A stretch of DNA of 64,000 nucleotides. Source: Candidatus Adlerbacteria bacterium (lineage in GTDB: Bacteria > Patescibacteriota > Minisyncoccia > Phycocordibacterales > SBAW01). This document shows, in pieces, positions 22,021 to 35,600 of this stretch. The DNA lies in the NCBI GenBank assembly GCA_026397405.1, contig JAPLUW010000001.1:407064-471063 (forward strand), in the 5' to 3' direction. Both the position numbers and the translations under genes were made by a program. The first letter of the stretch is position 1; every line of letters begins with the position of its first letter. Below the pieces are notes generated by a model, which worked only from the letters and a program-made list of their open reading frames with translations, had not been told where the DNA came from and did not search any database.

Positions 22021-23682
<1,662 letters not shown>

Positions 23683-23982: not shown

Positions 23983-24096
23983 AAATTCGGAATTCAAATT
24001 TCCGCCAAAAATATGGTCGGCGCGAAGCGCCGTCTGTTCTGCATTCCCCCCAAAAAATTCTGATTCAGAAAGGATTTTCCACGCTCCGCGTGGCTC
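23977..24096. repeat. IR1-L: 120-nt inverted repeat (partner 25341..25452, 119/120 identical)
   Basis: Reverse complement of 25341..25452. Contains the dyad site CCACGC-TCC-GCGTGG at 24079..24093. Overlaps the last ~34 codons of the recombinase gene and the tRNA 3' end. Confidence 0.9.
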
Positions 24097-25319
24097 AAAA
24101 TTCGATCCTTAATTTGAAAGTTCGAACCGACTTTTTTGAACAAATGAATATTTTCCTCATTTGTTCGGTCGTTTGCCAATTCCATATTGTATTTCAAAAA
24201 CTTTTCGGTAAGTTCGAACCGATTATTCGCTTTTATACCGTCCGCAAAAAGCGTACTCGATTGGACTTCCGATTGCCGATCTTTTGCATTCTCGGCAATC
24301 ATCCAATTTGCCCAATCGAGCGGCAAAGAAACTTTTTTGATTTCCTCTTGAATTTGAGAAGTGATGAGTTCCTCGCGGACATACTTCTGCTCACAAGGAT
24401 TTTTCCGTTTGGTACACCGCAAATAGTGATGACCTTTTTGTTGCTCGGTTGTTATAAAACATCCACATTCTCCGCAACGGAAAAATCCTCTGTACAAAAA
24501 TAGTTTCAGTCCTTTGGAGTGAGGTTTACTTTTCCTCATCATCACTTCTTGAACGGAATCAAAAAGTTTCTTTGTGATAATCGGTTCGTGCTTTCCCTCA
24601 AAAATCTCTCCGTTATATCGCATTAGACCAGTGTAAATAGGATTTTTGAGAAGTTTTTGATAATTCGACACCGCAAGCTCTCTACCGCTTTTTCTTTTCA
24701 ATCCAAGCCCATTAAACTTGTCGCGGACTTCCCTCAAAGTGAAGTTTCCAGTTGCATATGCCTCAAATGTCTTTTTCACTAAAATCGAAAGTTCGGGATG
24801 AGGCACAATACCTTTTCCTTTCTCGTTCACATAGCCAATCGGAGACATTTGAGGCCATATTCCTTCCTTCACTTTGTTTCTGTGTCCGCGCTTAATATTC
24901 TCCGACAAGTTATCTACATAATACTTGGATTGCGAAAAAGCGATTGAGAGCATGAATTTCCCTTGCGGTGTCGGATCAAACCAAAAAGTTGGAAATTTCA
25001 TTTCTACGATTACGCCAGTATCAACGAGGTAGATTATTTTTCCTCCATCTACCGAGTTGCGAGCAAGTCTATCGGGATGCCACGCCAAAATACCAGACGC
25101 CTCGCCTTTTTCCATTCGCTCCACCATTTCATTAAACACAGGGCGACCTGGTATTTTGGCGGTCTGCTTTTCGACAAAGACATCAACCACTTCCAGTTGT
25201 TCTTTCAACGCGAGTTCTTTTAACTCACTCAACTGGTCGGAAATACTGCGGACTTGTCTGTCTTTGTCGTCCGTAGACTTGCGAGTATAAATGAAAAACT
25301 TTTTGGTTTGATTATTCAT
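23994..25319 (-). CDS. large serine recombinase (resolvase/invertase catalytic domain + recombinase domain + zinc ribbon)
   Basis: N-terminal YTRKSTDD...ISDQ...LAWHPDRLARN resolvase fold with nucleophilic Ser. Central recombinase domain. Cys-rich zinc ribbon CGECGCF...YLRC. 441 aa. Confidence 0.9.
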   Translation of the reverse strand: MNNQTKKFFIYTRKSTDDKDRQVRSISDQLSELKELALKEQLEVVDVFVEKQTAKIPGRPVFNEMVERMEKGEASGILAWHPDRLARNSVDGGKIIYLVDTGVIVEMKFPTFWFDPTPQGKFMLSIAFSQSKYYVDNLSENIKRGHRNKVKEGIWPQMSPIGYVNEKGKGIVPHPELSILVKKTFEAYATGNFTLREVRDKFNGLGLKRKSGRELAVSNYQKLLKNPIYTGLMRYNGEIFEGKHEPIITKKLFDSVQEVMMRKSKPHSKGLKLFLYRGFFRCGECGCFITTEQQKGHHYLRCTKRKNPCEQKYVREELITSQIQEEIKKVSLPLDWANWMIAENAKDRQSEVQSSTLFADGIKANNRFELTEKFLKYNMELANDRTNEENIHLFKKVGSNFQIKDRILSHAERGKSFLNQNFLGGMQNRRRFAPTIFLAEI

Positions 25320-25340
25320 AGATTTGTATTGGCAAACGAC

Positions 25341-25452
25341 GAGCCACGCGGAGCGTGGAAAATCCTTTCTGAATCAGAGTTTTTTGGGGGGAATGCAGAA
25401 CAGACGGCGCTTCGCGCCGACCATATTTTTGGCGGAAATTTGAATTCCGAAT
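25341..25452. repeat. IR1-R: inverted partner of IR1-L
   Basis: Contains CCACGC-GGA-GCGTGG at 25344..25358. Confidence 0.9.
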
Positions 25453-25661
25453 TTTGGCGGTGTGTATTAAACAAAGTTCGAATGTATTTTGAGTTGAATC
25501 CTGACTCCGACTAATCGCACGCGCGGAGCGCGTAGTGGCTCTGGATTGAACCGTACGCCCCGATTGCGTGGGGAAACGAACCAATGCGCCTCGGACAGTC
25601 TCCTCCCCCCACCCCTCCACCGCGAAGCGGAAAAAGAAATGGAAAGGAAATTTTTGGTTTT
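25449..25661. repeat. IR2-L: ~213-nt inverted repeat (partner 35209..35431), identical except two indels
   Basis: Reverse complement of 35209..35431 is identical over ~165 nt. There is a 48-nt insertion here and a 57-nt insertion in the partner. Contains ACGCGC-GGA-GCGCGT at 25511..25525. Confidence 0.9.
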
Positions 25662-25744
25662 GCTTCGCCGTTGTCAATAATCTCATCTATTGTAATATAT
25701 CACATTATTGATATACGGCACAACAAACTGATACACTATAAACT

Positions 25745-25957
25745 GTGGATATGAAAACATCATCAATAAAACTGGGGAAAAACATAAAGCGCATACGAGA
25801 GCGAAAGAAAATGTCGCAAGGCGACATTTGTCGTGCACTCGGCTTTGATCGCGCTCAAATGAGTAATATTGAGGGCGGTAAGGGAAACCCGACACTTGCT
25901 ACTATTGAAAAAATCGCCCAAGCATTAGGAGTCGCTAGCGACGAACTTTTGAAATAA
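25745..25957 (+). CDS. XRE-family HTH transcriptional regulator
   Basis: 70 aa with a Cro/C1-type HTH (QGDICRALGFDRAQMSNIEGG...TLATIEKIAQALGV). Confidence 0.85.
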   Translation: MDMKTSSIKLGKNIKRIRERKKMSQGDICRALGFDRAQMSNIEGGKGNPTLATIEKIAQALGVASDELLK

Positions 25958-25959
25958 AT

Positions 25960-26823
25960 ATGACAACAAAAATATACAAATTCATACCACTCACACTGCT
26001 CGCACTATTTGTCTTCGCTCCGAGTCTTGTTCTAGCCCATCAACCTCGCATTACCGAGAGCAGGCAAACACAAGTCCCTAGTCCAGAAATTTCCAAAGCG
26101 TATTACGGCAAGCTTACCGGCGAGCCAGATGTCTATGTCATACAGGCAAGCGAGCCCTTTGATCTCTACGTCAATATACTCGTCCCCGATATTGCCGGCC
26201 AAAAGAAAGATGTCTCTGCCGTAGTCATTAAAGACGGCAATGTTGAAAAACCTCTGGCAGTTCTTGACGGTATACATTTTGAATGGAAGAAGTTTTATGA
26301 ACCTTTTGGTGCTGACAGCTACTGGATGGGGCCAGAGTACAAGGCCCGCGCAGTAGCTGGTATGTATGAGATCCGCGTATCGAGCCCAAACAACGACAGC
26401 AAGTACTCACTCGCCATCGGCGAGATAGAAGCTTTTGACGGCAAGGAGGGATTGAATGCACTCACTGTCATCCCCGAGCTAAAGAAAAACTTTTTTGAAG
26501 TATCTCCAATAAGTTTTATTAAATCACCGTTCGGCTGGGGACTTATCGTGGTTATGTATATTCTTGCGTTCATTGTGGGCTTCATCTACCGCACAATTTT
26601 GAAAAAGTTTGCCAAAAATTCTTCCCGTGGCGTTGCCCGAAATATCGGCAAGCCCGACCGCTTGCTCCGTGCGGTCATCGGCGTAGCATTACTCCTATGG
26701 GCTATCACCACCACATGGAGCCCTATCCTCATCTTCTTCTCCGGCTTCGCATTCTTTGAGTCGATATTTAGCTGGTGTGGATTTTATGCAGCTCTCGGCA
26801 AAAACACCTGCCCGGTGGAGTAA
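25960..26823 (+). CDS. secreted/membrane protein with C-terminal DUF2892-like (YgaP-type) TM domain
   Basis: Signal peptide. Soluble ~190-aa domain. C-terminal two-TM segment ending SWCGFYAALGKNTCP, typical of DUF2892. Confidence 0.6.
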   Translation: MTTKIYKFIPLTLLALFVFAPSLVLAHQPRITESRQTQVPSPEISKAYYGKLTGEPDVYVIQASEPFDLYVNILVPDIAGQKKDVSAVVIKDGNVEKPLAVLDGIHFEWKKFYEPFGADSYWMGPEYKARAVAGMYEIRVSSPNNDSKYSLAIGEIEAFDGKEGLNALTVIPELKKNFFEVSPISFIKSPFGWGLIVVMYILAFIVGFIYRTILKKFAKNSSRGVARNIGKPDRLLRAVIGVALLLWAITTTWSPILIFFSGFAFFESIFSWCGFYAALGKNTCPVE

Positions 26824-26943
26824 AAATTTACGGCCAAAGTATCACTTGCCACTGAAGATTGGGGTTCGCAAATAGGATGGGGAGGGAATAGTGGCTATTG
26901 AAAAATAAAGTTTATAATAGAAGTAAGGACTGAAGATACATAA

Positions 26944-27210
26944 ATGGATACTATAACCATACACACGATTGCCATCATTGCGTTTATTATCTGGAGTTTT
27001 CCTCTGGGATTGTTTCGCAGTCGATTTAGGAAGATGGTCTATCAAACTGATAGCTGGTGGATTAATGTAAAGCCCGTTTTTTGGGAGGAGATCAAAGTGC
27101 TTTTTGGCTTTCATCAGCGCACGAAGAGGGCAGAGTTGCGGCTGATTAATTTCTATCGTTTTTATCTGATCGTATACTTCGCTATTTTAATTTTAATACT
27201 ATCAACCTGA
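26944..27210 (+). CDS. small membrane protein (hypothetical)
   Basis: 88 aa with two hydrophobic helices. Followed by hairpin 27309..27350. Confidence 0.45.
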   Translation: MDTITIHTIAIIAFIIWSFPLGLFRSRFRKMVYQTDSWWINVKPVFWEEIKVLFGFHQRTKRAELRLINFYRFYLIVYFAILILILST

Positions 27211-27352
27211 TAGATAAATACTACCTACACCTTGTACTCATACCATGAGAAGCCCACATGAGCGCCACCCTCCTGGCTTTTTTAGTTGGGTGGGGGAGGT
27301 GGTAGAATAAAACGTAAATTTAGTCGATATTCGTGTATAATTTACGTTTTTC

Positions 27353-27381
27353 TTGACTTATTTTAATAAATAGACTATAAT
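27353..27381 (+). promoter_or_regulatory. consensus sigma-70 promoter upstream of fic (-35 TTGACT, 17-nt spacer, -10 TATAAT)
   Basis: TTGACT at 27353..27358 and TATAAT at 27376..27381, 14 nt before the ATG. Preceded by an 11-bp-arm hairpin plus T-run (27309..27350). Confidence 0.55.
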
Positions 27382-27395
27382 TTGAGTAAATATTT

Positions 27396-28289
27396 ATGAA
27401 AAATATACCCAAAAAAGTCCAAAATATCATAGATTTAAAAAAGAAATTCGATGCTCTTAAAAAGGGCAAAGATTCTCTTTTAACTATTCTTGAAGATGTA
27501 GAGTTGGCGGAATCTGTTTATAACTCAAATGCTATTGAAAACAGCACACTTACTCTACCTGACACAGAAAAAATACTATTGGATCTGGAAGTTTCTAAGG
27601 ATTATTCTTTACGTGAAGTTTTTGAAGCCAAAAATCTAGCTCGTGTATATGAATACATAAAGATAAAAAAAGATAGTATTGTTCTTAATCAAAAAACAAT
27701 GCTTTTTCTCCATAGCCTGCTTATTGGTGGCATAGATGATTCGATTGCTGGCAGGTTTAGAAAAGAGAGCGAATATGTCAGAGTTGGCAAACATGTAGCT
27801 CCAGCGCCAGAACATGTAATACGAATGATCGAGGTAATTCTCGATGAATACAAATCAAATCATGATGCAAATGTATTTGCCAAGATTGCTCACTTCCATT
27901 TACAGTTTGAAACAATACATCCATTTTGTGATGGGAATGGGCGTATTGGGCGTGTATTAATAAATCTGCAACTTCAGGAATTTGGTTATCCAAATATAAT
28001 TATTCGTGATAAAGAAAAGCAAGTTTATTATAGAACTTTTACACATTTTCGTGATACAAAATCAACAAAGCAAATGGAGAAAGTTATACATCTTGCATTG
28101 TTAGAGGGTTTACACAAAAGGATTGCATATTTAGAAAGCGCAACCATAGTCACTCTTTCTGCTTACGCAAAGAAACATTCATTACCCCTTGCAAATCTTA
28201 TCAATAGCGGAAGACGACAAACTATTCCAGCTTTTCGTGAAAAGGGTATTTGGAAAATAGGAGTTGAATATAAAAAAATAGATTTATGA
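27396..28289 (+). CDS. Fic family protein (AMPylator/NMP-transferase) with N-terminal inhibitory motif
   Basis: Fic motif HPFCDGNGRIGR. N-terminal [ST]xxxE[GN]-type inhibitory motif SNAIEN. Confidence 0.9.
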   Translation: MKNIPKKVQNIIDLKKKFDALKKGKDSLLTILEDVELAESVYNSNAIENSTLTLPDTEKILLDLEVSKDYSLREVFEAKNLARVYEYIKIKKDSIVLNQKTMLFLHSLLIGGIDDSIAGRFRKESEYVRVGKHVAPAPEHVIRMIEVILDEYKSNHDANVFAKIAHFHLQFETIHPFCDGNGRIGRVLINLQLQEFGYPNIIIRDKEKQVYYRTFTHFRDTKSTKQMEKVIHLALLEGLHKRIAYLESATIVTLSAYAKKHSLPLANLINSGRRQTIPAFREKGIWKIGVEYKKIDL

Positions 28290-28363
28290 AGAAAATTATT
28301 TAAAAATTGCAAAGGAGTATCTGTCTAAAAACTAATTTCATATACAAATGGTATAATAAATGT

Positions 28364-30034
28364 ATGAATGAAATTTTTTATACGGATGTCGCTAATGATT
28401 TGCGTACAATAATCAAAGGAGATATTTCTATCTTAGACAGTGATCGAGAAAAAGCTGCGCGAGACACAAGCCTTTTTTATGTAAAACCTCGCATTGTTGT
28501 CTACCCAAAAAGCAAAGAAGACATTGCAAGACTTGTTGCTTATGTGCATGCAAAAAAAACTAAAGATATAGATCAGGGTGTTCCGTTATCCCTCACCATG
28601 CGAGCCGCTGGTACATGTATGACCGGTGGCCCACTTTCGGAATCCATCGTCGTAGACACAATGAAATACATGAATCATGTATTTTCTGTCACCGACACAG
28701 AGGCCATAACAGAGCCGGGAGTATACTATAGTGATTTTGAGAAAAAAACTCTTGCGCACGGCTGGCTTTTGCCAAGCTATCCGGCGTCTCGTGATTTGGC
28801 TGCGATTGGAGGTATTGTCTCTAATAACTCAGGAGGTGAAAAGACACTTACCTATGGAAAGACGGAAAAGTATGTTCGCTCGCTCCGTGTTGTATTTGCA
28901 AATGGAGAAGAAGATGTTCTAGAACCACTTCATGCAGAGAAACTTATCGCAAAATGCGAAGAGCAAACTGAAAGCGGGCGAATTCATCGAGAGATATTTG
29001 CCCTTGTAAAGGACAACTATGATGTACTGCAACAAGCAAAACCGACAGTAACAAAAAATTCTTCGGGGTACTATCTTTGGAATGTCTACGATAAAGAATC
29101 AGGAGTATTTGACCTATCAAAGCTCGTTGTGGGCAGTCAGGGAACCCTTGCCTGTGTGACTGAAGCGACATTGAGTGGAATTGCCCCCAAAAAACATTCC
29201 AGAATGCTCGTTATGTTTTTGCCAGCCACAACACAACTAGGAGAAATAATTCCAAGACTTTTAAAACATACACCTGAAACCATCGAATCTTATGATGATC
29301 ATACGTTTAAAATAGCGATTAAATTCTTTGGCTCAATTGCAAAAAGCATGGGGGGTACTATGTTGACGCTCGGGTTCCAATTTTTGCCTGAGTTTTGGAT
29401 GGCAATCACTGGCGGAGTTCCAAAGATAATTCTCATGGCAGAATTTGCAGGGGATACTGAAGAAGAAGTTGCAGAGCAGGTACAGTCAGCATATAACGAG
29501 ATGAAGGTATTCGGATTTCCTATTACATTGACGCACTCGGAACAAGAAGCAAAAAAGTATTGGACATTCAGGCGCGAAAGCTTCAACCTGCTTCGCCAGA
29601 AGTTGCGAGGGTATCGAACGGCACCCACAATTGATGATATTGTCGTACACACAAAAGATCTCCCGGAGTTTCTTCCCAAACTTGAAATTATTTTTTCAAA
29701 ATATGATCTTATTTATACTGTAGCCGGACATATGGGAGATGCAAACTTTCATATTATTCCGCTTATTGACATTCATAAAGAAGGAATAGTTGAGACTCTC
29801 CACACACTCATGGATGAAGTCTATACTCTCGTATTTCAGTATGGAGGTTCTATGTCTGGAGAACATAATGACGGACTTTTACGTACCTCGTACCTTTCGC
29901 AGATGTTTAACCCTGAGATCGTACGTCTCTTTGAAAAGACAAAAGATATTTTTGACCCGCTTGCTATTTTAAACCCAGGTAAAAAAGTGTATGGAGACAA
30001 GGGTTTTGCGTGGAATCATATTGATACAAAATAA
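28364..30034 (+). CDS. FAD-linked oxidase (FAD_binding_4 / GlcD-like, D-lactate dehydrogenase family)
   Basis: FAD-binding PCMH domain (VVYPKSKEDIARLV...RAAGTCMTGG) and a C-terminal FAD-oxidase_C region. Start moved to internal ATG 28364. Confidence 0.8.
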   Translation: MNEIFYTDVANDLRTIIKGDISILDSDREKAARDTSLFYVKPRIVVYPKSKEDIARLVAYVHAKKTKDIDQGVPLSLTMRAAGTCMTGGPLSESIVVDTMKYMNHVFSVTDTEAITEPGVYYSDFEKKTLAHGWLLPSYPASRDLAAIGGIVSNNSGGEKTLTYGKTEKYVRSLRVVFANGEEDVLEPLHAEKLIAKCEEQTESGRIHREIFALVKDNYDVLQQAKPTVTKNSSGYYLWNVYDKESGVFDLSKLVVGSQGTLACVTEATLSGIAPKKHSRMLVMFLPATTQLGEIIPRLLKHTPETIESYDDHTFKIAIKFFGSIAKSMGGTMLTLGFQFLPEFWMAITGGVPKIILMAEFAGDTEEEVAEQVQSAYNEMKVFGFPITLTHSEQEAKKYWTFRRESFNLLRQKLRGYRTAPTIDDIVVHTKDLPEFLPKLEIIFSKYDLIYTVAGHMGDANFHIIPLIDIHKEGIVETLHTLMDEVYTLVFQYGGSMSGEHNDGLLRTSYLSQMFNPEIVRLFEKTKDIFDPLAILNPGKKVYGDKGFAWNHIDTK

Positions 30035-30057
30035 AAAATTTGTAGCCATTCTTAATT

Positions 30058-30447
30058 TTGCTATACTACAAGCATATGGAACATACAACTATACAGAGTC
30101 AGACCCCTACTCCTGAAAATAACTCGCCACTGACTCAACAAAAATGCATGGCATGCGAGGGTGGTGTCATTCCTTTTTCAAAGATAGAGGCAGATATATT
30201 ATGCAAGCAAATTCCCGGCTGGGATATTTCGCTTGATGCTAAAAGTATCGCCAAGCGATATGGTTTTAAAGACTTCAATGAAGCTCTTGTTTTTGTAAAT
30301 AAGGTTGGCGTTTTGGCTGAATCAGAGGGGCATCATCCGGACATATATCTGAAAGACTACAAATTTGTAGAGCTCACACTGTCCACCCATGCAATTAACG
30401 GACTCTCTCAAAATGATTTTATTCTTGCGGCTAAAATAGACGCCTAA
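30058..30447 (+). CDS. pterin-4-alpha-carbinolamine dehydratase (PCD/DCoH) with short Cys-containing N-terminal extension
   Basis: PCD signature region FNEALVFVNKVGVLAESEGHHPDIYLKDYKFVELTLSTHA. Confidence 0.85.
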   Translation: MLYYKHMEHTTIQSQTPTPENNSPLTQQKCMACEGGVIPFSKIEADILCKQIPGWDISLDAKSIAKRYGFKDFNEALVFVNKVGVLAESEGHHPDIYLKDYKFVELTLSTHAINGLSQNDFILAAKIDA

Positions 30448-30539
30448 TGTACTAGTATAATTCCATTAAACTATGATTAATCATTCTCCCTGTTATAGTT
30501 CTTGCAATGAAATCATGGTGGATATTAATAAATAACATT

Positions 30540-31667
30540 ATGGAAGAATCTTTGACAAAAAAACTCGATTTTATAGTCATAGGCGCAGGTATTGCCGGGC
30601 TTTCGTGTGCTTATCACCTCACCAAAGATGGTTACAGCGTCATGGTGTTCGAGAAATCGGACGGAAAAGATAATGCAAGCTATGCCTCTACCGCGGAGAT
30701 GAATCACGATCCGGACGCAAGCTGGGATAGGATCATAAGTAAGTTTGGTATTCGGGGGGCAAGGTACATCTGGAAACTTTCTGAATTTTCTGCGCAGAAA
30801 CTTACGAAATTCGCACATCGTCCGGGGTCGGAACACTTTTCGACCAAGCGAGTGCCGGCGCATATTTTTACCTATGACCAGAAAGGCGTAACGCTCTTAA
30901 AAAAGAGATTTGAACTATATAAGAAAATAGGGGCACAGGTTACGTTCACAGAAAACGCAAAATCTCTGCACAAGAATTTTCGTTCCTCGATAACTATAAA
31001 AAACGAAGGCGCAACAAATAACCAAGCTCTACTAATAGCTCTCCGGGCCGCCACGCACGAACAGGGTGGCAAGGTTATGTACAAGACGCCAGTAGTAGAT
31101 CTCAAGGTCAACAAGCAGGGGGTAGAAGTCAGAACAAAAAAAGGGAATATATTTCATGCAAAGCATGTGATACTCGCGACAGGCGGAATAGAGCTCATTA
31201 ATCTCCCGATCAAGATTGGGAGAGAGCGAACGTTTGTTGTGAGTTACAAAAAGCGAAATATGGACAAACTTTTCTCGTCTTCGCTCCTGTGGGATACAGC
31301 TGAGCCATTTCATTACATCCGTTCATTTGTAGGAAAGCGACTTTGGGTCGGAGGAGAAGACGTGGCAGAGGAATCCTATACACCTAGCTCGGACAAAAGG
31401 CATATTGCTGCACTGGATAAATATTCCAGAGAAGTATTGGCACTTGATTCCTCATACGTTCTTGAAAAGAAAAAAAGTTGGAGCGGAGTTTTTTTTCCGA
31501 CCGCGCGTGGATTGCCGTATATTGGCGACGTAGCCGGAACACCTATAAAACTTGCATTAGGATTCGGTGGGTCAGGTATTCTTATGTCTTTTGTATCTGG
31601 ATATCTAATTGCCTCATGGCTGAAGAAAAAAGAAATGAAATACAAACCGCTGTTCAAGATATGGTGA
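30540..31667 (+). CDS. FAD-dependent oxidoreductase (DadA/glycine-oxidase-like)
   Basis: Rossmann DFIVIGAGIAGLSCAYHL. C-terminal GG..G (FGGSGILMS). Confidence 0.8.
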   Translation: MEESLTKKLDFIVIGAGIAGLSCAYHLTKDGYSVMVFEKSDGKDNASYASTAEMNHDPDASWDRIISKFGIRGARYIWKLSEFSAQKLTKFAHRPGSEHFSTKRVPAHIFTYDQKGVTLLKKRFELYKKIGAQVTFTENAKSLHKNFRSSITIKNEGATNNQALLIALRAATHEQGGKVMYKTPVVDLKVNKQGVEVRTKKGNIFHAKHVILATGGIELINLPIKIGRERTFVVSYKKRNMDKLFSSSLLWDTAEPFHYIRSFVGKRLWVGGEDVAEESYTPSSDKRHIAALDKYSREVLALDSSYVLEKKKSWSGVFFPTARGLPYIGDVAGTPIKLALGFGGSGILMSFVSGYLIASWLKKKEMKYKPLFKIW

Positions 31668-31750
31668 ACTTTTACTCCGAATTGGGGAGCTAAGATGTCG
31701 GGGAAAAGGGGCTGGAAAACTGAGGCTTTTAGTGTCTGATCAATACAAAT

Positions 31751-31782
31751 AAAAAAACTCTAACTTTTGTTAGAGTTTTTTT
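31751..31782. terminator. bidirectional rho-independent terminator between convergent genes
   Basis: AAAAAAACTCTAAC...GTTAGAGTTTTTTT. Confidence 0.7.
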
Positions 31783-31801
31783 ATTTGTATTTCAGATGTA
31801 T

Positions 31802-32203
31802 TTATTTTGGCATCAAGACTGAGTCGATGACATGGATTACTCCGTTTGTACATTCTATGTCTGTTTGTACTACTTTGGCGTCGTTTACCATAACTCCATT
31901 TGCAGTGTCTATTTTAACTTCACCACCCTGTACTGTCTTTGCAGAAGTTAGACCCATTACATCAGAAGCCATTACTTTTCCTGCCACTACATGGTACGTA
32001 AGTATAGCTGTTAGCTTTGCTTTATCCGCGAGGACTGCATCGAGAGTCTCTTTTGGAATTTTGGCGAAAGCCTCATCAGTTGGAGCAAATACAGTGAAGG
32101 GCCCTGCACCAGATAGAGTGTCTACTAATCCTGCTACTTGTACTGCTGTTACTAAAGTTTTAAAGGATCCTGCCGCGACAGCTGTTTCTACGATATTTTG
32201 CAT
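31802..32203 (-). CDS. fasciclin (FAS1) domain protein
   Basis: [11 protein letters not shown]...LTYHVV...[13 protein letters not shown]1 motifs. Confidence 0.85.
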
Positions 32204-32265
32204 ATATTTATTTTAAATTGATTAAATATTGTTAATGCATACATGAAACAATTCGGGGTCGGAGA

Positions 32266-32472
32266 TTACTTTCTTCCAAGGTTTCCTAATTGAGTAAGAA
32301 GGTATACAGCTGATAGTCCTACCAATGTATATACTATTCTTGAGATTGCTGACATGTCACCAAACAGAGTTGCAACTAAGTCGAAATTTATTACCCCAAC
32401 TAATGCCCAGTTTAGACCACCTACAATCACAAGGATCATAGATACTAAATCCAATAAGTTTAATTTATTCAT
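32266..32472 (-). CDS. DUF378 family small membrane protein
   Basis: 68 aa. VGGLNWALVG motif. Confidence 0.8.
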   Translation of the reverse strand: MNKLNLLDLVSMILVIVGGLNWALVGVINFDLVATLFGDMSAISRIVYTLVGLSAVYLLTQLGNLGRK

Positions 32473-32584
32473 TTTATTTTTTTAATATTTTAAATTATCA
32501 ATTCGACCTTCCTCACTTGATATAGTTATATTATAAGATTTATGATAAAATAATGCAATACTTGTTTATAATTAACAATAACGT

Positions 32585-33241
32585 ATGTCGATGAATAAAA
32601 CTATGATCAATATACTTATCGCTTTGTTTGTTATTGTGGTGCTTTGGTCTATCTCAGGATTTTTTGGTTCTCGTGTTGAGCAAGCTGACTATACTGTCCT
32701 TGAGATAAAGGATGGATATGAAATACGAGAATATCCGGCACATATCGTAGCGCAGACTATGGTAAAGGGTTCTTATGGAGAATCTATGAATAATGGTTTT
32801 AGAATTGTGGCTGGGTATATCTTTGGCGGGAATACAAAAAAAGAAAGCATAGCCATGACCGCTCCAGTCGTCGCGCAAAGTGGCAAAGGTGAAAAAATAT
32901 CAGAAAGCATAGCCATGACTGTACCAGTCGTCGCGACGACTGAGGGCGACTCGCAAATAATATCTTTCGGCATGCCTCGTTCTTATACTCTGGAAACATT
33001 GCCGACACCAAATGATCCTCGAGTGAAAATTGTGATGATTCCTACCAAGAAATATGCAGTACTGCAGTTCTCATGGTATCGCTCGGATGCTCGGGTAAAA
33101 AACATGCAAGAAAAATTAGCTTCGGCACTTGCTCGTGATGGAGTAGCAACAAAGGGAAACACTGCATACGCTGGATACAATGCACCGTGGACTCCACCGT
33201 GGATGAATCGTAACGAAGTATTGGTTGAAATTATTAATTAA
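32585..33241 (+). CDS. SOUL/HBP heme-binding family protein with internal 20-aa tandem duplication
   Basis: SOUL-like fold (N-terminal TM, GYIFGGN, C-terminal ...YNAPWTPPWMNRNEV). 60-nt tandem duplication at 32843..32935 (ESIAMTAPVV / ESIAMTVPVV). Confidence 0.75.
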   Translation: MSMNKTMINILIALFVIVVLWSISGFFGSRVEQADYTVLEIKDGYEIREYPAHIVAQTMVKGSYGESMNNGFRIVAGYIFGGNTKKESIAMTAPVVAQSGKGEKISESIAMTVPVVATTEGDSQIISFGMPRSYTLETLPTPNDPRVKIVMIPTKKYAVLQFSWYRSDARVKNMQEKLASALARDGVATKGNTAYAGYNAPWTPPWMNRNEVLVEIIN

Positions 33242-33252
33242 TCTTATTTTTT

Positions 33253-33651
33253 ATGTTCATAAAACTTTACGCAATCGCATTACCAGTTTTCTTCGCCATC
33301 GACATGGTGTGGCTCGGGCTCGTGGCCAAAGACTTTTATCGAGGGCAAATAGGCACGCTTATGAAAAGTGATGTCAACTGGACCGCGGGGATTATTTTTT
33401 ACCTGATATTTATTGTGGGACTAGTGGTATTTGTCATCACACCAGCCGTGGAAAGGGGCTCATGGACGCACGCACTACTTTTCGGTGCGCTGTTTGGTTT
33501 GGTGTGTTATGCAACCTATGACCTCACCAACCTCGCGACACTCAAAGATTGGCCATTGCTCGTAACTATCGTTGATTTAGCGTGGGGTGCAGTACTCGCG
33601 GCTTCCGTATCTACCGCGACATACTTCATCGCAAGCAAGATCGGTTTATGA
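33253..33651 (+). CDS. DUF2177 family membrane protein
   Basis: 132 aa with 4 TM helices. YDLTNLATLKDWP motif. Confidence 0.65.
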   Translation: MFIKLYAIALPVFFAIDMVWLGLVAKDFYRGQIGTLMKSDVNWTAGIIFYLIFIVGLVVFVITPAVERGSWTHALLFGALFGLVCYATYDLTNLATLKDWPLLVTIVDLAWGAVLAASVSTATYFIASKIGL

Positions 33652-34412
33652 GTTATTACACAGCGCTCATTTTACTATTGTTTGCATACATGAGCCTGTG
33701 GTTTGCGGTTTCTTTGATTAAAAAAAGGAATGATGTGGCTGATGTGGCATGGGGTCTGGGATTCGTACTCATGACATGGGTGTCTTTTTTTCTTTCGGAT
33801 GATTCGGGAGTAAGAGGGCTGCTGGTGGGTATCTTGGTAACTGTGTGGGGCTTGCGTTTGGCGTGGCATATTCATGCACGAAACAAGGGCAAGGCGGAGG
33901 ACTATCGGTATCTCGCGTGGCGGAAAGAATGGGGCAAGTGGTTTTATATTCGTTCGTATTTCCAAGTCTATCTTTTGCAAGGTCTGTTTTTGTTTCTCAT
34001 CGTTCTGCCAGTACTGCTTATAAACAAAAGTGCAAGCGGAGATATCGGCTTACTCGATTTCTTAGGCGTAGCCGTTTGGCTCTTTGGTTTTTATTATGAA
34101 GCTGTCGGTGATGCACAACTCGCCCGATTTATTAAAAATCCTGCAAACAAAGGTAAGCTACTGCAAAGCGGACTGTGGGCATATACTCGGCATCCAAATT
34201 ATTTTGGTGAAGTAACGCAATGGTGGGGCATTTGGCTTGTCGCGCTTTCTGTACCTAGTGGTTGGTTTAGTATAATTGGGCCGATAACTATAACCTTTTT
34301 GATTTTGAAAGTTTCAGGTATTCCTATGCTCGAGAAAAAAATGGAAGAGAATCCAGATTTTGCAGAGTATAAAAGTAAAACAAGCGTATTTATTCCGTTG
34401 CCTAGAAAATAA
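33648..34412 (+). CDS. DUF1295 / 3-oxo-5-alpha-steroid 4-dehydrogenase-like membrane protein
   Basis: YTRHPNYFGEVTQWWGIW motif. Start ATG 33648 overlaps the previous stop (ATGA). Confidence 0.8.
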   Translation: MSYYTALILLLFAYMSLWFAVSLIKKRNDVADVAWGLGFVLMTWVSFFLSDDSGVRGLLVGILVTVWGLRLAWHIHARNKGKAEDYRYLAWRKEWGKWFYIRSYFQVYLLQGLFLFLIVLPVLLINKSASGDIGLLDFLGVAVWLFGFYYEAVGDAQLARFIKNPANKGKLLQSGLWAYTRHPNYFGEVTQWWGIWLVALSVPSGWFSIIGPITITFLILKVSGIPMLEKKMEENPDFAEYKSKTSVFIPLPRK

Positions 34413-34418
34413 CGTAGC

Positions 34419-34856
34419 ATGCATAATTTTGATCCACGCTTTAAACCAGACCTTACTCCAAAAGAAATGCTTCGTCTTGGAGTCTTTGGCGGATTATATT
34501 TTTCTGATAAGCCGAAGGAATTTCCAAAAGATTGGTGGCGGAGTGCAAAATTATCACCCGATGGAAAACGGCACAAAGAACTGAATTATTTTGGCGTGAA
34601 TGCCAGTCAGCCGCTTTCAGTGTGGCAAGCCAAAGGCTGGATCAATCCACAAGATCCACGTGGATGGTTTCAGTGGTATTGCAGATACTATATGGGTCGT
34701 AGAACAGCCGACGACGAGCGACAAATTAAAAGATGGCTCGCTATGCGACGACATATAATGCAAATCAAAAATAATTGCAGAGCTGAAGATATTTTTTGTC
34801 GGCCTCGCCAAAGACAAGCGGTATTGCATTGGGCCTATGACGCGAGAAAAATGTGA
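34419..34856 (+). CDS. conserved hypothetical protein (possibly DUF4385)
   Basis: 145-aa soluble protein. GWFQWYCRYYMGRR...DERQIKRW. Confidence 0.5.
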   Translation: MHNFDPRFKPDLTPKEMLRLGVFGGLYFSDKPKEFPKDWWRSAKLSPDGKRHKELNYFGVNASQPLSVWQAKGWINPQDPRGWFQWYCRYYMGRRTADDERQIKRWLAMRRHIMQIKNNCRAEDIFCRPRQRQAVLHWAYDARKM

Positions 34857-35208
34857 TCTAGGGAGCAATCCCCGTTGTTTTATAATGTTTTCTAAAAACG
34901 GCGAGGATTGTTGTGCGCGCATAGGGCGGGCGGGGCAAGCACATACAGATTTGTTTGTGCCTATGCACAATCCATATTCTTTAGGGTTACCACTCCACTC
35001 CCTCGAAGCCACCAAGCGAACAGACACAACGCCAAAGCAGCCAGCGCGAGCGAATGCGAGCGGGCTATGCGGAGGCGATTGTGTGTGGTTCGCGGACTCT
35101 AGAACTACCACTAAACGTCGCTATGGCACGCGCCTCGGTCGCCACAAGGAAATGGAGCAAATGGGCTTCATTGTGATAACTTTGTTGCCCTTTGTGGAGT
35201 TTCCTTGT

Positions 35209-35431
35209 GGCGAAGCAAAACCAAAAATTTCCTTTCCATTTCTTTTTCCGCTTCGCGGTGGAGGGGTGGGGGGAGGAGACGCGAGAAAAATGCAAGGAAA
35301 TTTTTTGGTTTTTGCACACGCGAGTCCGCGAGCGTGTCCGAGGCGCATTCCACTACGCGCTCCGCGCGTGCGATTAGTCGGAGTCAGGATTCAACTCAAA
35401 ATACATTCGAACTTTGTTTAATACACACCGC
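35209..35431. repeat. IR2-R: inverted partner of IR2-L
   Basis: Contains ACGCGC-TCC-GCGCGT at 35355..35369. Ends ...ACACACCGC followed by AAAAT. Confidence 0.9.
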
Positions 35432-35600
35432 AAAATAATGCGCCCGACAAGTATGTATTGGGGGGGGATTATATTTTTGCGTGAGAAGCGGATATTTATA
35501 ATTCACCCAGTGCTCCTAGCACGACATCTATTAATAGGTAATAATGTCACTACTGAAGGCCGTTTTCATACGTATCTTTATTCTCTAATACAATTCACAC

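What the first reader, a model, noticed from the sequence alone, without database searches (positions are those of the whole stretch)
25683..35208. Cargo gene set of the island: XRE regulator, Fic AMPylator, FAD oxidase / pterin dehydratase / FAD oxidoreductase trio, and a run of small membrane and heme/fasciclin-type proteins
The cargo between the IR2 copies is markedly AT-rich compared with the ~50% GC flanks. Its promoters have canonical sigma-70 consensus (TTGACT-17-TATAAT before fic), and its own terminators are bidirectional A/T hairpins. Gene content, in order, is:
- XRE HTH
- DUF2892-tailed membrane protein
- small membrane protein
- Fic with intact HPFCDGNGR and an N-terminal SNAIEN inhibitory motif
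- GlcD-like FAD-linked oxidase
- PCD/DCoH
- DadA-like FAD oxidoreductase
- fasciclin
- DUF378
- SOUL heme-binding protein
- DUF2177
- DUF1295
- a DUF4385-like protein

The FAD-oxidase + PCD + FAD-oxidoreductase trio is co-directional and tightly spaced (24- and 60-nt gaps), which looks like a small redox/pterin module of unknown substrate. Fic proteins on mobile elements often act as toxins or in host manipulation.
Basis: partly seen in the sequence, partly recalled or inferred. Interest (0 to 1): 0.6.

Follow-up and report, generated by a model that had tools for sequence, protein, structure and literature searches.

The report
Mosaic payload of a tRNA-Ser island
The AT-rich block is the real payload of a small mobile island in an ultra-small (CPR/Nomurabacteria-like) bacterium, but it is a patchwork of separately swapped gene modules, probably for light and oxidative-damage protection, and not one redox/pterin pathway.

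Summary
Window 25683-35208 is AT-rich (GC 0.409 against 0.485-0.49 in the flanks; GC3 0.384 against 0.484). Twelve of the 13 domain calls were confirmed; "DUF4385-like" was not.

The FAD oxidase / PCD / DAO trio is not a conserved unit. Only three of the 84 other oxidase loci examined have PCD next to the oxidase, and only one has DAO. DAO relatives elsewhere lack both partners.

The payload is a mosaic of modules:
- Fic sits where the closest relatives carry a photolyase-related (DPRP) gene.
- DAO and DUF378 are extra insertions.
- The recurring core is YgaP_TM ... SOUL-DUF2177-DUF1295-p145.

In relatives this core travels with TspO, NmrA, photolyase and DPRP. Four of its families (SOUL, fasciclin, DUF2177, DUF1295) are singlet-oxygen-induced in Chlamydomonas. 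My best guess, at moderate confidence, is a membrane/tetrapyrrole photo-oxidative protection set.

The carrier is one member of a large family (at least 556 relatives) of serine-recombinase elements inserted at tRNA-Ser genes. The family shares an XRE gene, a non-coding tail, variable cargo (mostly defence systems) and an unexplained internal inverted attP copy.

The parts
23893..23982 (+). tRNA-Ser gene whose 3' end is the integration site (attL core about CCGCCAAAAT at 23977-23986).
   Evidence: ARAGORN and Rfam; sequence read. The same tRNA (96.7% nt) flanks the recombinase-less version of the cluster in L007 and L040.
23977..24096 (.). IR1 outer arm (P' arm of attL). It also encodes the C-terminal tail of the recombinase.
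   Evidence: 120 nt, 99% complementary to 25341-25460. Equivalent arms occur in about 65 of 80 relatives.
23994..25319 (-). Large serine recombinase (441 aa). It lacks a 51-aa segment (likely the coiled-coil motif, inferred by analogy with other large serine recombinases) that most relatives have, and its C-terminal tail is frameshifted.
   Evidence: Pfam Resolvase + Recombinase + Zn_ribbon_recom; weak NCBIfam CcrB and XisF matches below cut-off; protein alignment.
25341..25669 (.). Segment X: the inner arms of IR1 and IR2 joined. It reads as an inverted, intact copy of the attP that attL x attR excision would recreate. It also holds the divergent recombinase/XRE promoter region.
   Evidence: The arms abut or overlap by 3-14 nt in 11 relatives and by 2 nt in L001.
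25745..25957 (+). XRE-family HTH regulator. It is part of the conserved element backbone and the first gene of the cargo operon.
   Evidence: Pfam HTH_31 and HTH_3. XRE lies divergent from the recombinase, about 400 nt upstream, in roughly 40 relatives.
25960..26823 (+). Secreted or membrane protein with a C-terminal YgaP-like TM domain. It recurs at the head of the cluster in relatives.
   Evidence: Pfam PF11127; signal peptide plus about 4 TM segments by hydropathy; homologues in L001, L007, L040, L087-89, L097/98.
26944..27210 (+). 88-aa two-TM protein.
   Evidence: No family hit; 95-97% aa identity in L006, L007 and L040; hydropathy.
27224..28288 (+). Fic replacement module: promoter TTGACT-17-TATAAT (27353-27381) plus a class II, FICD-like Fic gene (27396-28289). 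It is the most AT-rich coding part.
   Evidence: Pfam Fic; best PDB matches are FICD; promoter scan; GC 0.336 and GC3 0.22. Breakpoints at 27223 and 28289 against L007, where a DPRP gene fills the slot.
28364..30034 (+). VAO/GlcD-superfamily FAD-linked 2-hydroxy-acid-type dehydrogenase. It is a widespread CPR gene.
   Evidence: Pfam. NCBIfam YdiJ and GlcD matches are far below cut-off. PDB best matches are LctD and glycolate oxidase. More than 8000 homologues; 80 species-level loci.
30058..30447 (+). PhhB-type pterin-4a-carbinolamine dehydratase (PCD/DCoH). It is paired with the oxidase only in this island lineage.
   Evidence: Pfam Pterin_4a; NCBIfam below cut-offs; HHP catalytic motif aligned to PDB 2v6s; adjacency seen only in L001, L007 and L040.
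30507..31667 (+). DAO-superfamily FAD oxidoreductase. It is a separately inserted module.
   Evidence: Pfam DAO. No NCBIfam equivalog reached, with the D-amino-acid dehydrogenase model at 54.9 against a cut-off of 383. Present in L001 (90% nt) and absent in L007 and L040. About 55 CPR homologues at 40-57% identity in unrelated contexts.
31742..31791 (.). Bidirectional A/U-rich terminator hairpin between the convergent DAO and fasciclin genes.
   Evidence: 23-nt perfect arms; dG -33.8 kcal/mol, z = -11; retained in L007 and L040.
31802..32472 (-). Minus-strand unit: DUF378 (32266-32472) followed by fasciclin (31802-32203).
   Evidence: Pfam. Fasciclin is 96-97% aa identical in L007 and L040 and 83% in L001, where it lies in the opposite orientation. 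DUF378 is unique to the window.
32585..34856 (+). Tightly packed operon SOUL - DUF2177 - DUF1295 - p145, with gaps of 11 nt, a 7-nt overlap and 6 nt. This is the truly recurrent core of the cargo.
   Evidence: Pfam; promoter-like TTGATA-18-TATGAT at 32517-32546; 82% nt to L007 and L040. DUF2177-DUF1295 are adjacent in L001, L007, L040 and L097/98. p145 sits next to SOUL, TspO, DUF2177 or DUF1295 in 3 of 5 independent look-ups.
34857..35208 (.). Conserved non-coding backbone tail: a terminator hairpin after p145 plus about 290 nt conserved across elements that carry unrelated cargo.
   Evidence: blastn matches of 74-93% in at least 25 related elements. Indels are not in multiples of three and no frame is conserved. 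RNAalifold structure is inconclusive. No Rfam hit.
35209..35435 (.). IR2 outer arm (P arm) ending in the attR core (about CCGCAAAAT at 35428-35436).
   Evidence: Equivalent arms of 200-290 nt bracket the cargo in 16 relatives.

Best explanation
Window 25683-35208 is the payload of an 11.5-kb integrative element (23977-35435). The element is driven by a large serine recombinase and sits in the 3' end of a tRNA-Ser gene of a Nomurabacteria/Paceibacteria-like (CPR) genome.

**Shown**
- The element belongs to a large family with a fixed backbone. In order this is: tRNA, P' arm, recombinase, inverted attP copy, XRE, then the cargo operon(s). It ends with a terminator, a roughly 300-nt non-coding tail and the P arm.
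- Cargo in the family varies widely, from 1.5 to 15 kb.
- In this copy the cargo is a mosaic of at least seven independently exchanged modules in four transcription units.
- FAD oxidase-PCD-DAO is not a conserved unit.
- Fic occupies the slot that holds a photolyase-related DPRP gene in the nearest relatives.
- The recurrent core is YgaP_TM ... SOUL-DUF2177-DUF1295-p145. The same core is found without any recombinase at the same tRNA-Ser in related genomes and at other chromosomal sites in other CPR bacteria. There it is often accompanied by TspO, NmrA, photolyase and DPRP.

**Inferred**
- The core acts at the membrane to limit light- or singlet-oxygen-type damage.
- SOUL (and TspO in relatives) would bind or dispose of photosensitising tetrapyrroles.
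- DUF1295 (a steroid-reductase / ICMT-like membrane enzyme) with its coupled partner DUF2177 would remodel oxidation-prone membrane lipids or isoprenoids.
- The FAD enzymes, PCD and the self-inhibited FICD-type Fic are add-on redox and regulatory functions with unknown substrates.
- XRE controls the operon.
- The element spreads the set between lineages. After recombinase decay the cargo stays behind next to the tRNA.
For: **Island and family**
- The same architecture occurs at a tRNA-Gln in L001, with 90-92% identical oxidase-PCD and DAO DNA but only 68% identical recombinase DNA.
- At least 556 metagenomic relatives exist. About 65 of 80 show IR1 and 16 of 21 long loci show IR2.
- XRE is conserved next to the recombinase. 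The tail is conserved in at least 25 elements.
- Other cargos are restriction-modification systems, GmrSD, Shedu, AAA_15/21, Schlafen helicase, P-type ATPases and a TPM-domain protein.
- Tandem arrays occur.
- The family is absent from viral contigs.

**Foreign composition**
-.

**Mosaic structure**
- Breakpoints and identity steps against L007 and L040 are 81%, replaced, 98%, absent, 93%, absent, 82%.
- DPRP fills the Fic slot.

**Trio not conserved**
-.

**Core recurrence**
- L086 has SOUL-p145. L087-89 have YgaP_TM-TspO-DUF1295-NmrA-p145. L091 has TspO-DUF2177-p145. L097/98 have XRE-YgaP_TM-TspO-DUF2177-DUF1295-x-p145. L001 has TspO, photolyase and DPRP.

**Light and singlet-oxygen link**
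- The Chlamydomonas SAK1-dependent singlet-oxygen regulon lists SOUL1, SOUL2, the fasciclin-like FAS2, DUF2177 and DUF1295 (PMC4067076).
- DUF2177 and DUF1295 are characteristic neighbours of heliorhodopsin genes, including in Patescibacteria. SOUL and photolyase are also found there (bioRxiv 10.1101/2021.02.16.431466).
- Three of the four papers in the library that mention DUF2177 are about light.
- DUF1295 matches Steroid_dh, ICMT and PEMT models.
- Six of the 13 proteins are membrane proteins by hydropathy.
Against: **Functional theme**
- It rests on guilt by association and one eukaryotic regulon. No protein here has a tested function.
- This copy of the island has no photolyase, DPRP or TspO. 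The one light-specific gene slot has been replaced by Fic.
- The bacterial sigmaE-ChrR core regulon, as described in the papers read, does not list DUF1295, DUF2177 or SOUL. Its hallmark genes (CFA synthase, UfaD, UfaO/DUF1365, ChrR) are absent.
- No rhodopsin is present in the window.
- Two of five independent p145 neighbourhoods lack the other core families.
- CPR bacteria are episymbionts. SOUL, fasciclin and lipid enzymes could equally serve scavenging or attachment.

**Mobility**
- No empty attB site or excised circle was observed.
- The recombinase of this copy lacks the 51-aa segment and has a frameshifted tail, so this copy may be immobile.
- The internal inverted attP copy is not explained by the model.
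Confidence: 0.6

Rival explanations
1. Redox/pterin pathway. FAD oxidase, PCD and DAO act together on one pterin-linked or 2-hydroxy-acid/amine substrate and are the functional heart of the island.
For: The three genes are co-directional and closely spaced, downstream of one strong promoter-like site. All three are intact with cofactor-binding domains, and PCD keeps its catalytic HHP motif. The oxidase-PCD pair is kept in all four island-type loci: the window, L001, L007 and L040.
Against: DAO is absent from L007 and L040. In L001 it is separated from PCD by three genes. Eighty-one of the 84 other oxidase loci (47-80% identity) have neither PCD nor DAO within 10 kb. DAO homologues in L172 and L173 have neither partner. 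No pterin-dependent hydroxylase or pterin synthesis gene lies in the island. Different identity levels to relatives (98%, 92% and 90%, or absent) show separate histories.
Confidence: 0.1
2. Host-interaction or scavenging set. The episymbiotic bacterium uses fasciclin for adhesion, membrane-anchored SOUL to capture host haem or porphyrin, DUF1295/DUF2177 to remodel scavenged host lipids, and Fic to modify host or own chaperones. Light has nothing to do with it.
For: The organism is CPR. From general knowledge, such bacteria lack haem and lipid synthesis and live attached to hosts. SOUL carries an N-terminal membrane anchor or signal, and six of the 13 proteins are membrane proteins. Fasciclin is an adhesion fold. 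The Fic protein is FICD-like. This copy carries no photolyase.
Against: The fasciclin here has no signal peptide or TM segment, so it is not obviously surface-exposed. Relatives of the cluster repeatedly carry DNA photolyase or DPRP, which are light-specific enzymes. Published associations of DUF2177, DUF1295 and SOUL are with light and singlet oxygen.
Confidence: 0.2
3. Functionally incoherent grab-bag. The element simply accumulated unrelated accessory genes by successive insertions and replacements. The recurrence of some neighbours only reflects shared ancestry of a few related islands.
For: There is strong mosaicism with sharp identity steps and slot replacements. Cargo of sister elements is unrelated, mostly defence systems and ion pumps. 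Composition is heterogeneous, with GC3 from 0.22 to 0.53. Two of five p145 contexts have no shared neighbours.
Against: DUF2177-DUF1295 are translationally coupled and co-occur in every version. p145 neighbours SOUL, TspO, DUF2177 or DUF1295 in contigs from unrelated samples that have no recombinase. The same families co-occur in a green-alga regulon and next to heliorhodopsins, which shared ancestry of islands cannot explain.
Confidence: 0.1

Closest known systems
Tycheposons: cargo-carrying, tRNA-targeting integrative elements of Prochlorococcus and other streamlined bacteria (Hackl et al., bioRxiv 10.1101/2020.12.28.424599)
   Same: Small site-specific elements that insert at the 3' end of particular tRNA genes in a streamlined genome. 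They carry niche-adaptive or defence cargo and occur in tandem arrays. They leave cargo behind next to the tRNA after the integrase is lost, which seeds islands. L007 and L040, and the arrays in L138, L150 and L165, match this behaviour.
   Different: Almost all tycheposons use tyrosine recombinases and many carry replication genes. This family uses a large serine recombinase and has no replication gene. It also has a fixed XRE gene, a non-coding tail and an internal inverted attP copy with long, near-identical inverted repeats. None of these is described for tycheposons in the text read.
Large-serine-recombinase islands and cassettes (SCCmec CcrAB/CcrC; the Anabaena fdxN element with XisF; serine-integrase prophages)
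   Same: Same three-domain recombinase (Resolvase + Recombinase + Zn ribbon), with weak NCBIfam similarity to CcrB and XisF. The element is bounded by a short core repeat at a specific chromosomal site.
   Different: NCBIfam scores are far below the cut-offs (94 against 900; 84 against 375), so this is not one of those equivalogs. The target is a tRNA 3' end. The recombinase gene is bracketed by 120-nt inverted repeats that evolve in concert, and the cargo by 200-290-nt repeats. To my knowledge this is not a feature of SCC, of the fdxN element or of serine-integrase phages.
Singlet-oxygen / photo-oxidative stress gene sets (Chlamydomonas SAK1 regulon; Rhodobacter sigmaE-ChrR regulon; heliorhodopsin neighbourhoods)
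   Same: SOUL, fasciclin, DUF2177 and DUF1295 are all SAK1-dependent, singlet-oxygen-induced genes. DUF2177 + DUF1295, SOUL and photolyase are neighbours of rhodopsin genes. Relatives of this cluster carry photolyase, DPRP and TspO.
   Different: No ChrR/sigmaE, CFA synthase/UfaM, UfaD or UfaO (DUF1365) is present. No photolyase is in this copy. Regulation would be by an XRE protein, and induction is untested. The bacterial regulon papers read do not mention the DUF families.
Invertible DNA segments (Mu Gin G-segment, Salmonella Hin, shufflons) and the yeast 2-micron circle
   Same: A recombinase gene lies next to, or inside, segments bounded by inverted repeats. The cargo segment is found in both orientations among related elements. 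An excised circle would have two inverted repeats dividing it into two unique arcs, as in the 2-micron plasmid.
   Different: Those systems use small serine invertases with short (26-34 bp) sites, or a tyrosine recombinase (FLP). Here the enzyme is a large serine recombinase and the repeats are 120-290 nt. The recombinase segment was never seen flipped (0 of about 55). No gene fusion or promoter switch created by inversion is evident.
FICD/HYPE-type class II Fic AMPylases
   Same: Best structural-sequence matches are FICD (E = 2e-24 over residues 4-215). The N-terminal inhibitory motif SNAIEN fits (S/T)xxxE(G/N) and the catalytic loop HPFCDGNGRIGR is present.
   Different: There is no TPR or membrane anchor. 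A roughly 80-aa C-terminal extension is shared with a 46% identical CPR homologue. The target is unknown, and toxin behaviour is neither indicated nor excluded.

Membership tests
Genomic island / integrative element at a tRNA gene | Site-specific recombinase gene at one edge | tested here: met
   Large serine recombinase at 23994-25319, with Pfam Resolvase + Recombinase + Zn_ribbon_recom.
Genomic island / integrative element at a tRNA gene | Inserted at the 3' end of a tRNA gene and bounded by a direct repeat of the att core | tested here: met
   tRNA-Ser ends at 23982. The core CCGC(C)AAAAT occurs at 23977 and at 35428, with one indel. Relatives sit at tRNA-Ser GCT, GGA, CGA or TGA, and also at tRNA-Trp and tRNA-Gln.
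Genomic island / integrative element at a tRNA gene | Composition differs from the host genome | tested here: met
   GC 0.409 against 0.485-0.49; GC3 p = 5e-4; codon JS divergence outside the null range.
Genomic island / integrative element at a tRNA gene | Presence/absence polymorphism, with an empty site or excised circle in relatives | tested here: inconclusive
   L007 and L040 have the same tRNA and much of the cargo but no recombinase or repeats. No empty attB or circular junction was found.
   Among the 84 other oxidase loci examined, PCD lies within 10 kb in 3 (L001, L007, L040) and DAO in 1 (L001, three genes away). DAO homologues in L172 and L173 have neither partner.
DUF4385 (Pfam PF14328) | Significant match to the Pfam model | tested here: not met
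   No Pfam hit at E <= 1 except a spurious CDC73_C match (E = 0.076). No NCBIfam hit either. Ten distant homologues also have no Pfam hit in that region.
Class II Fic AMPylase (FICD-like) | Fic domain above the Pfam cut-off with catalytic HxFx(D/E)GNGRxxR | tested here: met
   PF02661 at 76.4 bits against a cut-off of 24. HPFCDGNGRIGR is read.
Class II Fic AMPylase (FICD-like) | N-terminal inhibitory helix motif (S/T)xxxE(G/N) in the same chain | tested here: met
   SNAIEN at residues 44-49. The alignment to FICD covers residues 4-215.
Class II Fic AMPylase (FICD-like) | AMPylation/deAMPylation activity on a defined target | not testable with these tools
   This needs biochemistry.
Pterin-4a-carbinolamine dehydratase (PhhB/DCoH) | Pterin_4a domain and the catalytic [DE]x3HHP...H...D signature | tested here: met
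   PF01329 at 94 bits against a cut-off of 26. ESEGHHP...STH...ND aligns to PDB 2v6s, with one extra residue in the x5 spacer. NCBIfam equivalog cut-offs are not reached (96.9 against 137).
Pterin-4a-carbinolamine dehydratase (PhhB/DCoH) | A pterin-dependent aromatic amino-acid hydroxylase partner in the genome | not tested
   None lies in the island. The rest of the genome is not available.
GlcD / D-2-hydroxyglutarate dehydrogenase YdiJ equivalogs | Score above the NCBIfam equivalog cut-off | tested here: not met
   YdiJ 226.7 against 1350; GlcD 186.2 against 567.9. Membership holds only at superfamily level (FAD_binding_4 + FAD-oxidase_C).
DadA D-amino-acid dehydrogenase | Score above the NCBIfam cut-off | tested here: not met
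   NF001933 scores 54.9 against 383. The best PDB match is glycine oxidase at only E = 6e-10. It is a DAO-superfamily member only.
SigmaE-ChrR / SAK1-type singlet-oxygen response set | Contains the hallmark families | tested here: inconclusive
   SOUL, fasciclin, DUF2177 and DUF1295 are present, matching the SAK1 list. Photolyase, CFA synthase, DUF1365/UfaO, UfaD and ChrR are absent from the window. Photolyase, DPRP and TspO occur only in relatives.
SigmaE-ChrR / SAK1-type singlet-oxygen response set | Induced by light or singlet oxygen and protective against them | not testable with these tools
   This needs expression data or genetics.
Site-specific invertible segment (Gin/Hin/shufflon type) | Segment bounded by inverted repeats and found in both orientations | tested here: met
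   IR2 arms at 25453-25669 and 35209-35435. Related elements L092, L093 and L095 against L099 and L120 carry the cargo in opposite orientation relative to the recombinase. This was seen between elements, not within one population.
Site-specific invertible segment (Gin/Hin/shufflon type) | Small serine invertase (or shufflon tyrosine recombinase) acting on short sites, with a gene or promoter switch as output | tested here: not met
   The enzyme is a 441-aa large serine recombinase. The repeats are 120-290 nt. No fusion or promoter switch is evident. The recombinase segment is never inverted in about 55 loci.

The most novel reading that the evidence does not exclude
The carrier may be an undescribed, CPR-wide class of large-serine-recombinase 'cassette shuttles'. 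In this reading the kept, inverted, concertedly evolving attP copy between recombinase and cargo is functional. It would let the recombinase flip or swap the cargo arc, a 2-micron-like or integron/shufflon-like exchange of whole operons. The conserved roughly 300-nt non-coding tail would be a regulatory or directionality RNA/DNA element. The family would then be a main route by which ultra-small bacteria trade defence systems and a light-stress membrane module that includes the highly conserved orphan protein p145.
Probability: 0.2. Interest if true: 0.75.

Novelty: new variant of a known kind. Interest (0 to 1): 0.45.

Why it matters
As first proposed (a new redox/pterin pathway on an island), the finding would not hold up. 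Three things remain of value.

1. **Gene flow in CPR bacteria.** It documents how ultra-small, host-dependent bacteria gain and shuffle accessory genes. A very abundant recombinase element family targets tRNA-Ser genes and carries mostly defence cargo. Here it carries a membrane/tetrapyrrole set. Little is written about mobile elements in this radiation.

2. **A concrete gene set to test.** SOUL or TspO, DUF2177-DUF1295, p145, and DPRP or photolyase form a candidate set for the unknown functions of DUF2177 and DUF1295. These families turn up in algal singlet-oxygen responses and beside heliorhodopsins.

3. **An unusual element layout.** The internal inverted attP copy and repeat arms that stay identical within each element but diverge between elements are not explained by the textbook serine-integrase cycle.

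Tried and rejected
**p145 (34419-34856)**
- The DUF4385 assignment was rejected: no Pfam or NCBIfam hit.
- No PDB sequence match.
- The AlphaFold model is moderate (pLDDT 73.5). It has no Foldseek match in PDB and one unnamed viral match.

**Searches that found nothing useful**
- Rfam over the whole window found only tRNAs.
- A rhodopsin search in the window failed. The only 7-TM candidate is a ZIP transporter.
- The recombinase family is absent from viral contigs; only 24-25% identical hits were found. A prophage origin is therefore rejected.
- Literature searches for CPR serine-recombinase elements returned nothing specific.

**Corrected or inconclusive**
- I recalled that the Rhodobacter sigmaE operon contains DUF1295. 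The papers do not support this: RSP1091 is UfaD, an FAD desaturase, and RSP1090 is UfaO. The bacterial-regulon argument was dropped, and only the Chlamydomonas and heliorhodopsin evidence is used.
- Protein coding in the 34857-35208 tail was rejected because frames are not conserved. The RNA structure there is inconclusive, with a covariation term of +1.28.
- Promoter-like sites are not enriched.
- ORFs 34837-35421 (+), 25312-25686 (-) and 25683-25895 (-) were treated as spurious. They overlap repeats or real genes and have no family hits.

Full report
**1. What is there**

The window has a GC content of about 0.49, except for a trough between roughly 24 and 35 kb. The layout from left to right is as follows.
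- groEL lies at 22030-23682.
- Two tRNA-Ser genes follow.
- A 441-aa large serine recombinase lies on the minus strand at 23994-25319 (Resolvase + Recombinase + Zn ribbon).
- After it comes the block named in the finding.

Two nested pairs of inverted repeats frame these parts.
- IR1 has arms at 23977-24096 and 25341-25460 (120 nt, 99%) and brackets the recombinase.
- IR2 has arms at 25453-25669 and 35209-35435 and brackets the cargo.

Reading the junctions gives three results.
- The left end of the island is the last bases of the second tRNA-Ser.
- A short core, CCGC(C)AAAAT, is repeated at both ends.
- The 329-nt piece between recombinase and cargo (25341-25669) is an inverted, intact copy of the attP that excision would recreate.

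**2. Checking the observation**

*Composition.* The AT-richness is real.
- The cargo has GC 0.409 and the flanks 0.485-0.49. No 9.5-kb flank window is below 0.479.
- GC3 is 0.384 against 0.484 (p = 5e-4), and codon usage lies outside the flank-versus-flank null.
- The dip is uneven. Fic has GC3 of 0.22. YgaP_TM and DUF2177 have flank-like values.

*Gene content.* Pfam confirms twelve of the thirteen proposed identities.
- Fasciclin and DUF378 are on the minus strand.
- The last gene, which I call p145 (34419-34856), matches nothing in Pfam or NCBIfam, so 'DUF4385-like' fails.

*Regulatory signals.*
- The Fic promoter match (TTGACT-17-TATAAT, 27353-27381) exists. Promoter-like sites as a class are not enriched.
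- The A/U-rich bidirectional hairpin at 31742-31791 is very stable (z = -11).

*Transcription units inferred from spacing and signals.*
- XRE - YgaP_TM (- the 88-aa protein)
- Fic - oxidase - PCD - DAO
- DUF378 - fasciclin, on the minus strand
- SOUL - DUF2177 - DUF1295 - p145

**3. The organism and the closest relatives**

The FAD oxidase has thousands of homologues. All named ones are from CPR/Patescibacteria: Paceibacterota, Nomurabacteria and others. Three relatives are informative.

*L001.* This locus comes from a 385-kb contig.
- It has the same architecture at a tRNA-Gln: recombinase inside a 132-nt perfect IR1, and IR2 around a 15-kb cargo.
- Its gene order is XRE, YgaP_TM, EcoRI methylase, GmrSD, TspO, oxidase, PCD, a 145-aa ORF, photolyase, DPRP, DAO, fasciclin, DUF2177, DUF1295, NmrA, p145.
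- Oxidase-PCD and DAO DNA are 92% and 90% identical to the window, but the recombinase only 68%.

*L007 and L040.* These are Nomurabacteria MAGs.
- They carry the same tRNA-Ser (96.7% nt).
- It is followed, with no recombinase, XRE or repeats, by YgaP_TM, the 88-aa protein, a DPRP gene, and oxidase-PCD (98% nt).
- Then come fasciclin and SOUL-DUF2177-DUF1295-p145, and directly after them Ham1.

Comparison with these gives sharp breakpoints.
- The Fic module (27224-28288) replaces DPRP.
- DAO (30449-31735) and DUF378 are insertions.
- Identity steps along the cargo run 81%, replaced, 98%, absent, 93%, absent, 82%.

The payload is therefore a mosaic of modules with separate histories.

**4. The trio**

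I tested co-occurrence from two sides.

From the oxidase side:
- The scan returned 80 loci from a one-genome-per-species collection, 47-99% identical, with up to 10 kb on either side, plus five loci look-ups.
- PCD is nearby only in L001, L007 and L040, and DAO only in L001.

From the DAO side:
- The family is small, with about 55 CPR members at 40-57% identity, then Bacteroidota at 25-30%.
- Two CPR contexts and one Bacteroidota context have neither partner.

Only an oxidase-PCD pair survives, and only inside this island lineage. There it sits next to a DPRP or photolyase gene in every relative.

None of the three enzymes reaches an NCBIfam equivalog cut-off. 'GlcD-like' and 'DadA-like' are therefore superfamily labels only.

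PCD keeps the HHP catalytic signature.

**5. The recurrent core**

*Gene coupling.*
- DUF2177 and DUF1295 overlap by 7 nt here and by 4 nt in L001.
- They are adjacent in every version.

*p145.*
- It follows DUF1295 after 6 nt.
- The p145 family is large: 2014 clusters at 50% identity, and more than 8000 close homologues at 75-93% identity.
- It is found overwhelmingly in CPR and is unannotated.

*Five independent neighbourhood look-ups for p145 gave:*
- SOUL-p145
- YgaP_TM-TspO-DUF1295-NmrA-p145
- TspO-DUF2177-p145
- Fic-p145, with a Fic 46% identical to the window's
- one uninformative context

*A compact version.* A sister element, L097/98, carries XRE-YgaP_TM-TspO-DUF2177-DUF1295-x-p145.

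*Membrane character.* Six of the 13 cargo proteins are membrane proteins by hydropathy.

*p145 structure.* The model is all-helical at moderate confidence and has no solved structural neighbour.

**6. What it probably does**

Direct function is unknown for nearly every gene, so this part is inference.

*Literature evidence.*
- The SAK1-dependent singlet-oxygen regulon of Chlamydomonas contains two SOUL proteins, a fasciclin-like protein, a DUF2177 protein and a DUF1295 protein (PMC4067076).
- DUF2177 and DUF1295 are the characteristic neighbours of heliorhodopsin genes, including in Patescibacteria. SOUL and photolyase are also found there.
- TspO is a tetrapyrrole-binding protein linked to protoporphyrin IX turnover (PMC4926414 and PMC12002307, listed; only title and abstract were seen).

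*Evidence from the sequences.*
- Relatives of this cluster carry photolyase and DPRP.
- DUF1295 resembles steroid 5-alpha-reductase / ICMT-type membrane enzymes.

*Proposed function.* I propose a membrane-centred protection set against photosensitised oxidation.
- SOUL or TspO sequesters or disposes of tetrapyrroles.
- DUF2177-DUF1295 remodels lipids or isoprenoids.
- Flavoenzymes, PCD and a self-inhibited FICD-type Fic are accessories.

I put this at roughly 0.4-0.5. The structural conclusions (mosaic island payload; trio not a unit) stand at about 0.85.

*Counter-evidence.*
- This copy has lost its only light-specific slot to Fic.
- The bacterial sigmaE-ChrR hallmark genes are absent. My initial recollection that DUF1295 belongs to that operon was wrong.
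- A scavenging or host-interaction reading is a fair rival.

**7. The carrier**

A metagenome scan found at least 556 relatives of the recombinase at 75-84% identity. The family shares these features.
- Nearly all loci with enough sequence show 120-nt IR1 arms around the recombinase.
- The 3' end of the recombinase abuts a tRNA-Ser, of any isoacceptor.
- A divergent XRE gene lies about 400 nt upstream.
- IR2 arms of 200-290 nt surround a cargo of 1.5-7 kb. The inner arms of IR1 and IR2 overlap by 3-14 nt.
- The 350 nt at the right end of the finding (34857-35208) is conserved in at least 25 of these elements, whatever their cargo. It is non-coding.

Sampled cargos are mainly defence systems and a few transport or other genes:
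- restriction-modification systems, GmrSD, Mrr, Shedu, AAA_15/21 and Schlafen helicase
- P-type ATPases and a TPM-domain protein

Other properties of the family:
- Tandem arrays occur.
- The family is absent from viral contigs.
- IR1 arms are 99.1% identical within elements (20 of 31 perfect) but only 79% identical between elements. That is lower than the recombinase gene itself at 85.5%, so the arms evolve in concert.
- The recombinase segment was never found flipped. The cargo is in opposite orientation in some related elements.

The window's recombinase lacks a 51-aa segment that most relatives have. I take this to be the coiled-coil motif, by analogy with other large serine recombinases. 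Its C-terminal tail is also frameshifted, so this copy may no longer move on its own.

I have no tested explanation for the retained inverted attP copy.

**8. Comparison and verdict**

The closest known concept is the tycheposon, a tRNA-targeting cargo element of streamlined genomes. Like this family, tycheposons leave cargo behind at the tRNA. The recombinase type, the fixed XRE gene and tail, and the double inverted-repeat layout differ.

The cargo itself is an ordinary, if poorly understood, accessory set. The proposed trio pathway is not supported.

Overall I rate this a new variant of a known kind, of moderate interest. The element architecture and the p145/DUF2177/DUF1295 module are the parts worth following.

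Noticed in passing
window 23977-24096, 25341-25669, 35209-35435; also L001 and L092-L171: The island keeps an intact inverted copy of its own attP between the recombinase and the cargo. The IR1 arms are near-identical within each element (99.1%) but only 79% identical between elements, which indicates concerted evolution. The layout is conserved in hundreds of metagenomic relatives. It is not explained by the standard serine-integrase cycle.
   Followed up: partly
L092, L093, L095 versus L099, L120: Related elements (88-93% nt) carry the cargo segment in opposite orientation relative to the recombinase. The IR2-bounded cargo has therefore inverted, or re-inserted, at least once. The recombinase segment was never seen inverted (0 of about 55 loci).
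   Followed up: partly
window 34857-35208: This roughly 350-nt non-coding segment consists of a hairpin just after p145 plus about 290 nt. It is conserved at 74-93% in at least 25 related elements with unrelated cargo. Indels break any reading frame. The RNAalifold structure has a few compensatory pairs but no net covariation support. It could be a regulatory RNA or DNA element of the backbone.
   Followed up: partly
window 34419-34856: p145 belongs to a very large, very conserved orphan family: more than 8000 homologues at 75-93% identity and 2014 clusters at 50% identity. The family is almost confined to CPR bacteria. It has no Pfam or NCBIfam model and no structural neighbour in the PDB. 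Invariant residues include the GWI..DPRGWFQWYCRYY.GRR..DD.RQI.RW block and two Cys.
   Followed up: partly
window 23994-25319 (about residue 365 and the C-terminal tail): The recombinase lacks a 51-aa segment that most family members have (likely the coiled-coil motif). The deletion is shared with L148. The last roughly 35 residues are also frameshifted, whereas the inverted copy at 25341-25460 still encodes the family's consensus tail. This copy may be inactive.
   Followed up: partly
window 23893-23982; L007 6226-6313; L040 2388-2475: ARAGORN calls this tRNA-Ser with anticodon ACT (A at position 34). That is unusual for a bacterial tRNA-Ser. It recurs in two related genomes, next to a normal tRNA-Ser(GCT) in those.
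   Followed up: no
L175/L176 4070-5438: In an unrelated CPR contig, a Fic protein 46% identical over its full length to the window's Fic lies 49 nt upstream of a p145 homologue. The shared C-terminal extension is included. This hints at a Fic-p145 link.
   Followed up: partly
L138, L150, L165/L166: Two elements of the family, with recombinases only about 64-77% identical in DNA, are integrated in tandem at one tRNA-Ser.
   Followed up: partly
window 32842-32935: There is a 34-nt direct repeat, 91% identical and spaced 60 nt, inside the SOUL gene. It duplicates the peptide ESIAMT(A/V)PVVA.
   Followed up: no
window 37010-37567: A 185-aa ORF just right of the island carries only the C-terminal DNA-binding domain of DnaA (Bac_DnaA_C, E = 5e-11). 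It is absent, together with the SIMPL gene at 35601-36344, from the syntenic region of L007 and L040.
   Followed up: no
L006 (JBAXVK010000063.1): A 3.5-kb contig binned as Polynucleobacter carries the 88-aa protein, DPRP and an oxidase 99% identical to the window's. It is very probably a mis-binned CPR contig.
   Followed up: no
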